The notes under the pieces were generated by a model. The model was given only the letters and a program-made list of their open reading frames with translations. It was not told the origin of the DNA and ran no database searches. Position numbers and translations under genes: made by a program. A stretch of 50,364 nt of DNA, taken from Methanobacteriota archaeon. GTDB lineage: Archaea > Thermoplasmatota > Poseidoniia > MGIII > CG-Epi1. Below are positions 27,542 to 28,591 of the stretch, in pieces. Numbering within the stretch: the first letter of the stretch is position 1; every line of letters starts with the position of its first letter. The stretch is from NCBI GenBank assembly GCA_014240055.1, contig JAAZXP010000004.1, positions 1-50,364 on the forward strand, in the 5' to 3' direction.

Positions 27542-28591
27542 TTAAGATTCAGGTTCAATAATTTCAAATTTAGTATTGAAATAGTTTGTAATTCCTGGAA
27601 TATCTTTAATTAAATCTCCATAAGAACCAAGATGGGTTGTAGAATCGGTTGCCGTTATACCTGTTGTTCCAAGTATGTTTTCTAATATTACGCTACCTTC
27701 TGTGGAATCATTCATACTAAGGAGTGCATCCTGAACTTTCTTTTGAATTTCAGTGTCGATATAGTTTGGATTATACATTACTGGATGGGAAGGTGCAGAT
27801 CCGTAGGAAGGTAATAAAATGTAATTCTCTTCTGCAAGGCACCACTCCTCATTATCTGCTGAGTTTTCATTTCCACAATAGCCAGCAACAGTCGAATCTT
27901 TAGCAAACGCTACATCGCCTATACCCTCTGATAGACACTTTACTGCACCTGAATAGCCGTAGTAAGGAGTTCCTGATTCAGGAATACTTGAATTATCGTT
28001 GAAAAAATTATAAACTGTGCTTCTCAAAGATTCTATATCAGTTTCATCGCCAACAATATCTGCATAGCCCTTTCCTATCAAAAACCCCATAGGCAATAAC
28101 ATTCCTGCCGACTTTAACCACCCTGTATGACAAGATGTTTTACCTTCTAACAGTGCAAATGGATCGGTAGAATCATCATCATCCAAATACGCTTCTGCCA
28201 TTTCAGAATCTTTCAATACGACTGCATGTGCATTATAGAAAGTACGGCCATCGCTTTTCTGATCGGCTGCAATTGCTTCAAGTCCATATTGTTTCCAACC
28301 AACCCATGCAGCAGCCCCGTCCATGAATGCAATATGTGCATTTCCAAACCTTAGTGCTTCAATTATTGCGCCTTCTGAGGTTATTGGATAAAGTTCCACA
28401 TCCATATCAAGTTCTTTAGCTAGATAATCGGCCATTACTTGCGGATTATCATCAGGATTATCATAATCTTCTTTTACTTCATATGCGATTATGAATTTTT
28501 CTTTTTGAGTCGTTTCATCTTCACTCAAACAACCTGTAAAGGTCGTCATTACGAACAACATAGCAAGACCCAATGACACACTTTTTTTCAT
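27542..28591 (-). CDS. Lipoprotein substrate-binding protein with transferrin-family signature (predicted Fe3+/anion binding), in the PhnD position
   Basis: Lipobox-like TTFTGC. Motifs [69 protein letters not shown] and APSHPVM line up with the transferrin N-lobe blocks that carry the Asp/Tyr/Tyr/His iron ligands and the carbonate-binding Thr. Confidence 0.8.
   Translation of the reverse strand: [349 protein letters not shown]

What the first reader, a model, noticed from the sequence alone, without database searches (positions are those of the whole stretch)
27542..28591. Single-lobe transferrin homologue acting as the binding protein of a PhnC/PhnE-type ABC importer in an archaeon
The permease (VGAGGIGYYI block) and ATPase are clearly phosphonate-type, so automatic annotation would call this operon phnCDE. 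The binding protein, however, aligns block by block with the vertebrate transferrin N-lobe as I remember it. FMDGAAAW matches TLDAGLVY (Asp ligand). [13 protein letters not shown] matches TFYYAVAVVKKDS (Tyr ligand). [22 protein letters not shown] matches [22 protein letters not shown] (carbonate-binding Thr; the anion Arg is Lys here). [26 protein letters not shown] matches [26 protein letters not shown] (second Tyr). APSHPVM matches VPSHTVVA (His ligand). All four Fe3+ ligands therefore appear to be present in a lipobox-bearing (FTGC) archaeal SBP. This predicts a carbonate/anion-assisted ferric iron importer rather than a phosphonate importer. It would also be a living intermediate between PhnD-type binding proteins and transferrins, still wired to its ABC transporter. 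The flanking DtxR boxes and DtxR-family repressor support a metal substrate independently.
Basis: partly seen in the sequence, partly recalled or inferred. Interest (0 to 1): 0.85.

Follow-up and report, generated by a model that had tools for sequence, protein, structure and literature searches.

The report
Iron-regulated archaeal transferrin on an ABC importer
A marine planktonic archaeon (Marine Group III) has a transporter routinely annotated as "phosphonate uptake" whose binding protein is a true transferrin relative with all the iron-binding residues, switched by an iron-type repressor, so it most likely imports ferric iron and marks a prokaryotic branch of the transferrin family.

Summary
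ORF 27542-28591(-) encodes a 349-aa lipoprotein. It passes both Pfam Transferrin (74 bits, cut-off 20) and Phosphonate-bd (90 bits) and fails the NCBIfam PhnD models. Its best solved-structure relatives are lactoferrins and transferrins (E 1e-29 to 1e-34).

Human transferrin D63/Y95/Y188/H249, T120/A126/G127 and the C118-C194 disulfide align to D91/Y119/Y213/H269, T156/A162/G163 and C154/C219. Arg124 is Lys160. These residues are kept in 127 of 130 lobes from 83 related loci. The E. coli PhnD ligand residues are replaced.

The gene heads an operon with PhnC-like ATPase and PhnE permease genes. Three 16-bp palindromes (TTTAGG-N4-CCTAAA) lie between it and a divergent DtxR gene with a Fe-type Met/Cys/Glu/His site. 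Across 83 loci, 131 of 134 such boxes sit at the binding-protein start. In a syntenic relative the same module drives an FTR1 iron permease. No C-P lyase genes lie nearby.

Most Poseidoniia relatives have two lobes. The window's single lobe is N-lobe-like and possibly a secondary loss.

Iron binding is inferred, not shown. Verdict: new variant of a known kind, high interest.

The parts
27542..28591 (-). Transferrin-like substrate-binding lipoprotein, 349 aa. It has a signal peptide and lipobox (FTG-C21). Putative Fe ligands are D91, Y119, Y213 and H269. The anion site is T156, K160, A162 and G163. The Cys pair C154/C219 corresponds to hTf C118-C194.
26817..27500 (-). ABC ATPase, PhnC-like (TIGR02315 149 bits, below its cut-off of 266).
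   Evidence: It is conserved downstream of the binding-protein gene in nearly all of the related loci that extend that far.
25945..26820 (-). ABC permease of PhnE type (TIGR01097 220.6 bits against a cut-off of 216.7). Its start overlaps the ATPase stop by 4 nt.
25022..25948 (-). Membrane-anchored 308-aa protein whose start overlaps the permease stop. It gives a sub-threshold HmuY-like (haem-binding fold) hit. It is conserved only in the MGIII-type version of the operon.
28611..28626 (.). Operator box 1, TTTAGGCTGCCCTAAA, a 16-bp palindrome. The core lies 21-34 nt upstream of the binding-protein ATG.
28627..28640 (.). Operator box 2, TTAGGTGAGCCTAA, which abuts box 1.
28660..28675 (.). Operator box 3, TTTAGGTTTCCCTAAA. 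It lies between a TATATATA element (28649-28658) and the TTTTTTATAA element ahead of the dtxR ATG, which suggests autoregulation (inferred).
28707..29366 (+). DtxR-family repressor with a C-terminal FeoA/SH3-like domain. The primary metal site is M13, C105, E108 and H109, matching DtxR M10/C102/E105/H106.
29368..29724 (+). DsrE-like 118-aa gene that starts 2 nt after the dtxR stop. It always accompanies this dtxR in related loci. Its role is unknown.

Best explanation
This is an iron-repressed ABC importer whose extracellular receptor is a prokaryotic transferrin.

Shown:
- The binding protein is a homologue of transferrin lobes that keeps the complete Asp/Tyr/Tyr/His ligand set, the Thr and helix-N-terminus anion site (with Lys for Arg), and the lobe-core disulfide.
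- It is a lipoprotein encoded first in an operon with a PhnC-like ATPase and a PhnE permease.
- Three palindromic operators lie between it and a divergent DtxR-family gene.
- These operators are conserved at this gene across Marine Group II and III archaea.

Inferred:
- When iron is replete, the Fe2+-loaded DtxR dimer occupies the operators that overlap the core promoters. It shuts off both the importer and its own operon.
- Under iron scarcity the lipoprotein is displayed on the outer face of the single archaeal membrane. It closes around inorganic Fe3+ together with a synergistic anion, most likely carbonate from seawater.
- It then docks on the PhnE-type permease dimer and delivers the iron for ATP-driven import.
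For: Homology and site:
- Pfam Transferrin 74.4 bits.
- The best PDB matches are all transferrins.
- Ligand mapping was reproduced in three alignments.
- The D-Y-C-T-K-Y-C-H signature is intact in 30/30 single lobes, 49/50 N-lobes and 48/50 C-lobes from 83 loci.
- Lys at the Arg124 column is also the commonest residue in the eukaryotic transferrin lobes of the set.
- The AF2 model (pLDDT 84) matches transferrin lobes at Foldseek probability 1.0 with 21-23% identity, against 12-17% for PhnD/PtxB/AioX.

Not PhnD:
- The NCBIfam PhnD and TIGR01098 models score below their cut-offs.
- PhnD ligand residues S127/T128/S129/H157/D205 become K/S/A/Y/H.
- No PhnG/H/I/J/M hit was found in 819 kb.

Iron regulation:
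- Three exact boxes lie in the 115-bp intergenic region and none elsewhere in 50 kb.
- 131 of 134 boxes in 769 kb lie at the binding-protein start, 5.3 per kb against 0.004 per kb.
- The palindrome extends beyond the searched pattern, with T at 90% and A at 93% of the flanking positions.
- Variant boxes sit at the same positions in loci without exact boxes.
- The repressor has DtxR-type M/C/E/H rather than MntR-type D/E at the primary site.
- The syntenic locus L087 has the same three-box module driving an FTR1 iron permease.
- In L086 the repressor gene sits beside a FecCD/Peripla_BP_2 importer and a HugZ-like gene.
Against: - No biochemical evidence exists; metal binding is inferred from aligned residues.
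- I could not read model coordinates, so I could not measure whether the four residues converge on the cleft.
- The broad Phosphonate-bd HMM scores slightly higher than Transferrin (90 against 74 bits).
- PhnE-type permeases are known only for anions, and as far as I know there is no precedent for Fe3+ passing through one.
- The anion-site Arg is Lys.
- DtxR-family repressors can be Mn-responsive, and JGI's generic name for this repressor's orthologues is 'Mn-dependent'.
- The repressor's ancillary site (H79/E83/H98 in DtxR) is not kept.
- The Foldseek E-values do not separate transferrins from PtxB/PhnD.
Confidence: 0.7

Rival explanations
1. It is what automatic annotation says: a PhnD-type binding protein for phosphonate, phosphite or phosphate feeding a PhnCE importer for phosphorus nutrition.
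For: Pfam Phosphonate-bd is the top Pfam hit at 90.1 bits. The permease passes the PhnE equivalog model and the ATPase's best NCBIfam match is PhnC. NCBI and JGI name the relatives as phosphate/phosphonate binding proteins. Tully 2019 counts phosphonate transport in the MGII core genome (PMC6336850). Some picocyanobacterial PhnD proteins work without C-P lyase, as a title and abstract listed indicate.
Against: The PhnD equivalog model scores 48 against 261, and the subfamily model TIGR01098 scores 65 against 112. Five of the six aligned E. coli PhnD ligand residues are replaced by the transferrin set. Only 400 of 1.84 billion representatives reach E <= 0.001; the 150 best are almost all transferrin-like, and the very large PhnD family is hardly represented. 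No C-P lyase genes were found in 819 kb. Regulation is by a DtxR-type operator that is shared with an FTR1 iron permease.
Confidence: 0.05
2. It is a metal importer, but the cargo is not simple Fe3+-carbonate. It could be another hard metal ion (Mn3+/Mn2+, Ti4+, V, Al3+). It could also be Fe3+ with a different synergistic anion (phosphate, as in Neisseria FbpA) or a small organic ferric chelate.
For: Transferrin sites bind several hard metals (established knowledge, recalled). Arg124 is Lys here, and the anion pocket descends from a phosph(on)ate pocket. DtxR-family members include Mn sensors, and the best NCBIfam match of the repressor is an MntR model, although far below its cut-off (100 against 350). 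The permease is of an anion-transporting type.
Against: The repressor's primary site has the Met/Cys pair that distinguishes Fe-type DtxR/IdeR from Mn-type MntR, which has Asp/Glu (the selectivity rule is recalled from the DtxR/MntR literature). The same operator module controls FTR1 and a FecCD-type iron-complex importer next to a HugZ-like gene. Lys at this position is common in eukaryotic transferrin lobes.
Confidence: 0.2
3. Evolutionary rival to the 'living intermediate' reading: archaea acquired a eukaryotic transferrin lobe by horizontal transfer and plugged it into an existing PhnCE transporter, so the family is a derived offshoot and not a link between PhnD and transferrin.
For: The nearest eukaryotic relatives are 33-38% identical and come from marine or aquatic protists (Ichthyosporea) and a green alga. 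The tree nodes separating archaeal and eukaryotic groups have only 22-65% bootstrap support. The distribution in prokaryotes seems restricted to Thermoplasmatota.
Against: Archaeal lobes are not nested inside eukaryotic ones in the NJ tree, and PhnD-like proteins that already carry D/Y/Y/H branch just outside. The Pfam score gradient places the archaeal proteins between PhnD-like and eukaryotic lobes. They remain in the ancestral operon context with PhnC/PhnE partners. The family is deep and diverse within Thermoplasmatota, including high-GC lineages.
Confidence: 0.2

Closest known systems
Eukaryotic transferrin lobes (serotransferrin, lactoferrin, ovotransferrin; Pfam PF00405)
   Same: Same fold. 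Same Asp/Tyr/Tyr/His positions. Same Thr-x3-(Arg/Lys)-Ser-Ala-Gly anion motif at a helix N-terminus. Same core disulfide (C118-C194). The Lys206 equivalent is also present. Relatives are two-lobed and ~700 aa long, like vertebrate transferrins.
   Different: It is a lipid-anchored receptor of an ABC importer rather than a soluble carrier taken up through a receptor and endocytosis. Identity to vertebrate lobes is only 21-23%. Most transferrin disulfides are absent. It has Lys instead of Arg at the anion site. It still scores on the Phosphonate-bd HMM, which the human lobe does not (24 bits, below the cut-off). The archaeal two-lobe state arose by its own duplication, because the archaeal lobes group together.
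Phytotransferrin ISIP2a of diatoms (McQuaid et al. 2018, as summarised in PMC7676907)
   Same: A cell-surface, membrane-anchored, iron-starvation-induced protein of marine plankton that captures inorganic Fe3+ with carbonate. It is proposed to share an origin with transferrin among phosphonate-binding periplasmic proteins.
   Different: ISIP2a works by endocytosis in a eukaryote. Here the partner is an ABC transporter in an archaeon. I had no ISIP2a sequence, so direct similarity was not tested.
PhnCDE / PtxABC phosphonate and phosphite importers
   Same: Same operon logic (binding protein, ATPase, single PhnE permease). The permease passes the PhnE model. The binding-protein fold is shared.
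   Different: The binding pocket is rebuilt: PhnD Y93 is kept, but S127/T128/S129/H157/D205 become K/S/A/Y/H. There is no C-P lyase or other phosphonate catabolism nearby. Control is by an iron-type DtxR operator rather than by phosphate starvation.
FbpABC / FutABC ferric-ion ABC importers ('bacterial transferrin' FbpA)
   Same: The proposed function is the same: a binding protein holds naked Fe3+ with Tyr/His/carboxylate ligands and a synergistic anion, and hands it to an ABC transporter under iron-responsive repression (established knowledge, recalled).
   Different: FbpA belongs to a different binding-protein family and resembles transferrin by convergence. The window protein hits no FbpA-type Pfam family at E <= 1 and is a sequence homologue of transferrin itself. 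The permease is of the PhnE type.
DtxR/IdeR iron regulons
   Same: A repressor with Fe_dep_repress, Fe_dep_repr_C and SH3-like domains and the M/C/E/H primary site. The operators are palindromic and built on TTAGG...CCTAA, as in the DtxR consensus TTAGGTTAGCCTAACCTAA (consensus recalled). The gene is divergent and probably autoregulated. The targets are iron-uptake genes.
   Different: The system is archaeal. The palindrome is 16 bp and occurs in two or three copies over a TATA-type promoter. The ancillary metal site is not conserved.

Membership tests
Transferrin family (PF00405) | Scores above the curated threshold of the family HMM | tested here: met
   74.4 bits against a gathering score of 20.3, E 1.3e-20, two stretches. 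All 120 listed relatives carry PF00405.
Transferrin family (PF00405) | Four Fe3+ ligands, Asp63, Tyr95, Tyr188 and His249 (hTf N-lobe numbering) | tested here: met
   D91, Y119, Y213 and H269 in three independent alignments. Invariant in A1 and kept in 127 of 130 lobes. Their spatial convergence in the model could not be measured.
Transferrin family (PF00405) | Synergistic-carbonate site: Thr120, Arg124 and the backbone NH of Ala126/Gly127 at a helix N-terminus | tested here: inconclusive
   T156, A162 and G163 are conserved with identical spacing. Arg124 is Lys160. Lys is also the commonest residue at this column in the eukaryotic lobes sampled. Whether carbonate is the anion is untested.
Transferrin family (PF00405) | Conserved lobe-core disulfide (hTf Cys118-Cys194) | tested here: met
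   C154 and C219 align to C118 and C194 and are invariant. PhnD and the PhnD-like P0200/P0240 lack both. Disulfide formation itself was not tested.
Transferrin family (PF00405) | Two homologous lobes in one chain | tested here: not met
   The window protein has one lobe. However, 53 of 84 related ORFs have two lobes of 700-740 aa with both sites intact.
Transferrin family (PF00405) | Reversible Fe3+ binding with a visible charge-transfer band | not testable with these tools
   Requires purified protein.
PhnD phosphonate-binding protein (TIGR03431 / TIGR01098) | Scores above the curated NCBIfam cut-off | tested here: not met
   TIGR03431 scores 48.3 against 261.1, and TIGR01098 scores 65.3 against 112.05; both matches cover only the N-terminal half. 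The broad Pfam PF12974 is met (90.1 against 27).
PhnD phosphonate-binding protein (TIGR03431 / TIGR01098) | Phosph(on)ate-binding residues of E. coli PhnD: Y93, S127, T128, S129, H157, D205 (mature numbering; the ligand list is recalled from the PhnD structure paper) | tested here: not met
   The aligned residues are Y119, K160, S161, A162, Y213 and H269, so only the Tyr is retained.
PhnD phosphonate-binding protein (TIGR03431 / TIGR01098) | Genomic link to phosphonate or phosphite catabolism | tested here: not met
   No tblastn hit for PhnG, H, I, J, M, N, O or P in the window plus 83 loci (819 kb). The only hits were ABC-ATPase cross-matches for PhnK and PhnL. PtxD and PhnWX were not searched.
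PhnCE-type ABC transporter | Permease and ATPase pass the PhnE and PhnC equivalog models | tested here: inconclusive
   PhnE TIGR01097 scores 220.6 against 216.7 (met). PhnC TIGR02315 scores 149.3 against 266.1 (not met, although it is the best NCBIfam hit).
FbpA/FutA ferric-binding proteins | Sequence membership in the FbpA-type binding-protein families | tested here: not met
   Only two Pfam families hit at E <= 1, Phosphonate-bd and Transferrin.
DtxR/IdeR Fe-responsive repressor | Domain set plus the primary-site residues Met10, Cys102, Glu105 and His106 | tested here: met
   Fe_dep_repress, Fe_dep_repr_C and FeoA domains are present. M13, C105, E108 and H109 align to the DtxR residues in the 1g3y alignment. 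The ancillary site H79/E83/H98 is F/Q/A, so it is not met. The metal response itself is not testable here.

The most novel reading that the evidence does not exclude
The Thermoplasmatota/Poseidoniia proteins are the surviving prokaryotic stem of the transferrin family. On this reading, transferrin's iron-carbonate site was invented in an archaeal PhnD-type ABC receptor and later passed to eukaryotes, where the closest lobes today are in unicellular relatives of animals. Carbonate-dependent capture of inorganic iron by this system would then be a main iron-acquisition route of the most abundant planktonic archaea in the surface ocean. Their iron supply would be sensitive to ocean acidification, as in diatoms.
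Probability: 0.25. Interest if true: 0.92.

Novelty: new variant of a known kind. Interest (0 to 1): 0.8.

Why it matters
1. It would correct an ecological inference. The 'phosphonate transporter' listed as a core trait of Marine Group II archaea (PMC6336850) is this gene family, which 384 species-level genomes encode. The evidence here says it belongs to the iron regulon.

2. It provides a prokaryotic transferrin that still sits in its ABC-transporter operon. The proposed descent of transferrins from phosphonate-binding proteins therefore becomes directly testable with real intermediates: PhnD, then PhnD-like proteins with D/Y/Y/H, then the archaeal CHTG proteins with the disulfide, then protist multi-lobe proteins, then animal transferrins.

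3. It shows an independent invention of the two-lobe, ~700-aa transferrin architecture.

4. If carbonate is the synergistic anion, iron uptake by abundant marine archaea would depend on seawater carbonate chemistry.

5. It poses a mechanistic puzzle: how a PhnE-type permease, known for anions, would pass ferric iron.

Tried and rejected
- **Foldseek against PDB.** It did not discriminate: transferrins and PtxB/AioX/ArrX/PhnD all score near E 1e-13, with TM-scores of only 0.4-0.6, probably because of different hinge openings. Only the identity column (21-23% against 12-17%) leans towards transferrin.
- **hmmalign of hTf to the family HMM.** It left the N-terminal 75 residues unaligned, so it missed Asp63. 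The phmmer lactoferrin alignment and the 101-lobe MAFFT alignment recovered it.
- **Model coordinates.** They are not exposed, so ligand distances could not be measured.
- **Upstream gene in MGII loci.** I tested whether the 297-299-aa gene upstream of the binding protein in MGII loci is homologous to the window's downstream 308-aa gene. It is not.
- **HmuY assignment of the 308-aa protein.** It stays sub-threshold in all seven orthologues, and the PDB profile search gives only E 0.18.
- **Literature.** Ten searches found no description of an archaeal transferrin. Many hits were the word 'transferring'. The full text of McQuaid 2018 is not held, so I cannot exclude that its tree already shows archaeal sequences.
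- **Repressor orthologues in MGII.** The homologue search returned only the 120 closest relatives, all at least 67% identical. I did not show directly that MGII genomes, which lack an adjacent gene, carry the repressor elsewhere.
- **Contamination.** Eukaryotic contamination of the contig is rejected: the operon structure, neighbours and synteny with MGIII MAGs are archaeal.
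Full report
**The observation**

The ORF at 27542-28591 on the minus strand is real: 349 aa with an ATG start.

The N-terminus is a signal peptide ending in a lipobox, and Gly20-Cys21 are invariant in the family.

Downstream on the same strand, with short or overlapping junctions, lie three more genes:
- an ABC ATPase (26817-27500);
- a PhnE-type permease (25945-26820);
- a 308-aa membrane-anchored protein (25022-25948).

**HMM and structure-database tests**

- Pfam Phosphonate-bd scores 90.1 bits and Pfam Transferrin 74.4 bits (gathering score 20.3).
- The specific NCBIfam models fail: PhnD TIGR03431 scores 48 against 261, and TIGR01098 scores 65 against 112.

By sequence against all solved structures, the best relatives are lactoferrins (E 1.8e-29). 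With a 30-sequence family profile, all 60 best chains are transferrin-family, from 1.4e-34 down to 4e-15, and no PhnD, PtxB or AioX chain is among them.

An exhaustive phmmer pass over 1.84 billion representatives finds only 400 proteins at E <= 0.001. The 150 best are almost all transferrin-like, and only a few PhnD-like proteins appear among them.

The AF2 model (pLDDT 84, pTM 0.78) matches transferrins and PhnD/PtxB/AioX about equally in Foldseek, as expected for one fold with different hinge states. Identity is 21-23% to transferrins and 12-17% to the others.

**The binding site**

Three alignments agree: phmmer to lactoferrin, hTf aligned to the family HMM and a 101-lobe MAFFT alignment.

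| hTf N-lobe | Window protein | Role in hTf |
|---|---|---|
| D63, Y95, Y188, H249 | D91, Y119, Y213, H269 | Fe3+ ligands |
| T120, R124, A126, G127 | T156, K160, A162, G163 | carbonate site |
| C118-C194 | C154, C219 | core disulfide |
| K206 | K231 | second-shell Lys |

- These residues are invariant in the 30-sequence alignment.
- Across 83 related loci, the D-Y-C-T-K-Y-C-H signature is intact in 30/30 single lobes, 49/50 N-lobes and 48/50 C-lobes.
- Lys at the Arg124 column is also the commonest residue in the eukaryotic lobes of the set, so it does not disqualify the site.
- In the same alignment the E. coli PhnD residues Y93, S127, T128, S129, H157 and D205 (mature numbering; I recall these as its 2-aminoethylphosphonate ligands) fall on the same columns. 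They read Y, K, S, A, Y and H in the window protein.

The pocket is therefore homologous in position but rebuilt to the transferrin type. I could not measure distances in the model because its coordinates are not exposed.

**Regulation**

The 115-bp region between the binding-protein gene and a divergent DtxR-family gene (28707-29366) holds three palindromes, TTTAGG-N4-CCTAAA. Their cores are at 28612-28625, 28627-28640 and 28661-28674. There is no other exact match in the 50-kb window.

- In 83 related loci (769 kb), 131 of 134 exact boxes lie within -200 to +100 of the binding-protein start. That is 5.3 per kb against 0.004 per kb elsewhere.
- The positions flanking my search pattern are T (90%) and A (93%), which extends the palindrome to 16 bp.
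- Loci without exact boxes carry a variant (…CCGAA) at the same -71 and -37 positions.
- Marine Group II loci keep the boxes even though the repressor gene is not adjacent.
- The repressor aligns with DtxR so that M13, C105, E108 and H109 match M10, C102, E105 and H106. B. subtilis MntR has Asp and Glu at the first two of these positions. From the DtxR/MntR literature as I recall it, the Met/Cys pair marks iron selectivity. The ancillary site is not conserved.

**A natural control**

Locus L087 is syntenic with the window on both sides: MMPL, MutL, then DtxR, DsrE, thioredoxin, two unnamed genes, HAD, TruD and Trm1. In place of the four-gene operon it has a single FTR1 high-affinity iron permease gene. 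The intergenic region has the same three boxes and TATA-like elements in the same order.

In L086 the same repressor-DsrE pair is divergent from an operon that encodes a 784-aa protein, a Peripla_BP_2 binding protein, a FecCD permease and an ABC ATPase, followed on the same strand by a HugZ-like gene. An orphan transferrin-like gene nearby has two boxes.

The operator module therefore controls recognised iron-uptake genes in sister genomes. No C-P lyase gene was found in 819 kb of window plus loci. The other window genes I scanned are unrelated to phosphonate metabolism.

**Who has it, and in what form**

- The closest loci (84-86% identity) are Marine Group III 'CG-Epi1' MAGs.
- 384 species-representative genomes, nearly all Poseidoniia, encode a relative.
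- More distant single-lobe members (36-43% identity) occur in high-GC Thermoplasmatota.
- 53 of 84 ORFs in the loci have two lobes and are 700-740 aa long.
- C-lobes form an almost clean group (48 of 48, with 3 other lobes). They carry a ~31-aa insertion with two extra Cys after the His ligand.
- The window's lobe lacks the insertion. After its two single-lobe sisters, its nearest relatives are the N-lobes of two-lobe MGIII proteins.

The window's single-lobe state may therefore be a secondary loss rather than the ancestral form.

**Relation to PhnD and eukaryotic transferrins**

The Pfam scores form a gradient.

| Protein | Phosphonate-bd (bits) | Transferrin (bits) |
|---|---|---|
| E. coli PhnD | 268 | no hit |
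| PhnD-like P0200 | 171 | 22 |
| PhnD-like P0240 | 151 | 15 |
| Window protein | 90 | 74 |
| High-GC archaeal P0136 | 98 | 84 |
| High-GC archaeal P0144 | 86 | 80 |
| Ichthyophonus P0161 (two lobes) | 111 | 211 |
| Amoebidium P0147 (two lobes) | 92 | 216 |
| Human transferrin N-lobe | 24 (below cut-off) | 584 |

- P0200 and P0240 already have D/Y/Y/H at the ligand columns but lack the Cys pair and the Lys.
- The closest eukaryotic proteins are multi-lobe proteins of Ichthyosporea (Chromosphaera, Ichthyophonus, Amoebidium, Creolimax) and of the green alga Bryopsis.
- A rough NJ tree (272 columns, 100 bootstraps, rooted on E. coli PhnD) places P0200/P0240 first. It then splits an archaeal group from a eukaryotic group.
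- The deep nodes have only 22-65% support. This fits an intermediate position, but it does not settle the direction of transfer.

**Mechanism proposed**

Shown: homology, ligand conservation, the lipoprotein signal, the operon with an ABC ATPase and permease, the conserved operators, and a Fe-type repressor site.

Inferred:
- Fe2+-DtxR represses both divergent promoters.
- On iron scarcity the lipoprotein is displayed on the single membrane, captures inorganic Fe3+ with a synergistic anion (carbonate is the likely one in seawater), docks on the PhnE dimer and releases iron for ATP-driven import.

The weakest step is passage of ferric iron through a PhnE-type permease, for which I know no precedent.

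**Novelty**

The idea that transferrin and phytotransferrin descend from phosphonate-binding proteins is published (McQuaid 2018, as summarised in PMC7676907). NCBI already uses the generic name 'PhnD/SsuA/transferrin family' for some relatives.

In ten searches I found no paper describing an archaeal transferrin, its iron regulation or its two-lobe forms. The MGII literature treats the system as phosphonate transport (PMC6336850). The full text of McQuaid 2018 was not available.

I rate it a new variant of a known kind, with high interest. Confidence is about 0.7 that the substrate is ferric iron. Confidence is much higher that the protein is a transferrin homologue under an iron-type regulon.

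Noticed in passing
L007:4980-7106, L011:4225-6363, L035:4977-7106 and about 50 other loci; proteins P0121, P0002, P0008: Most Poseidoniia relatives are two-lobe proteins of 700-740 aa behind one lipobox, and both lobes keep all ligands (53 of 84 ORFs). C-lobes form their own clade and carry a ~31-aa insertion with two extra Cys. This is an independent, archaeal invention of the bilobal transferrin architecture.
   Followed up: partly
L087:5113-6663: A locus syntenic with the window has an FTR1 iron permease in place of the transferrin-ABC operon. It is driven by the same three-box operator/TATA module, almost base for base.
   Followed up: yes
L086:1-6693 and L086:10337-11600: The same DtxR-DsrE pair lies divergent from an operon that encodes a 784-aa protein, a Peripla_BP_2 protein, a FecCD permease and an ABC ATPase, followed by a HugZ-like gene, with one box between them. 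An orphan 390-aa transferrin-like gene with two boxes lies 4 kb away, with no ABC partners next to it.
   Followed up: partly
window 25022-25948 (-): The last gene of the operon is a 308-aa membrane-anchored protein. It and all six MGIII orthologues give the same sub-threshold Pfam HmuY (haem-binding) hit, and the best PDB profile hit is a 'putative heme binding protein' at E 0.18. It is absent from MGII operons.
   Followed up: partly
window 29368-29724 (+): A DsrE-like 118-aa gene starts 2 nt after the dtxR stop. It accompanies this repressor in every locus seen, including L086 and L087. Its link to iron regulation is unexplained.
   Followed up: no
L001:7960-8020, L038, L049-L052, L054, L056, L068: One Poseidoniaceae sublineage has no exact operator but carries variant half-sites (TTAGG-N4-CCGAA or ACGAA) at the same -71 and -37 positions. 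This suggests co-evolution of operator and repressor, or weakening of control.
   Followed up: partly
proteins P0200, P0240: These PhnD-like proteins (Phosphonate-bd 150-171 bits, with a 'TS.TGSSG' anion motif) already have Asp, Tyr, Tyr and His at the four transferrin ligand columns. They lack the Cys pair and the Lys. They may be an earlier step towards the iron site. Their taxonomy is unknown.
   Followed up: no
proteins P0127 (1894 aa), P0139, P0141, P0135 (2619 aa): The nearest eukaryotic relatives are giant proteins with 3 to 14 transferrin-like lobes, from Ichthyosporea (Chromosphaera, Creolimax) and the green alga Bryopsis. Most of their aligned lobes have intact D/Y/Y/H and Lys at the anion site.
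   Followed up: no
L010:4980-9549: Two two-lobe transferrin-like genes lie in tandem ahead of the ATPase and permease genes.
   Followed up: no
window 15572-19723 (+) and 12216-14027 (+): Large predicted proteins with domains that are unusual for archaea: a 1383-aa protein with a plastocyanin/azurin copper-binding domain and an LDL-receptor class A hit, and a 603-aa protein with a C-type lectin domain.
   Followed up: no
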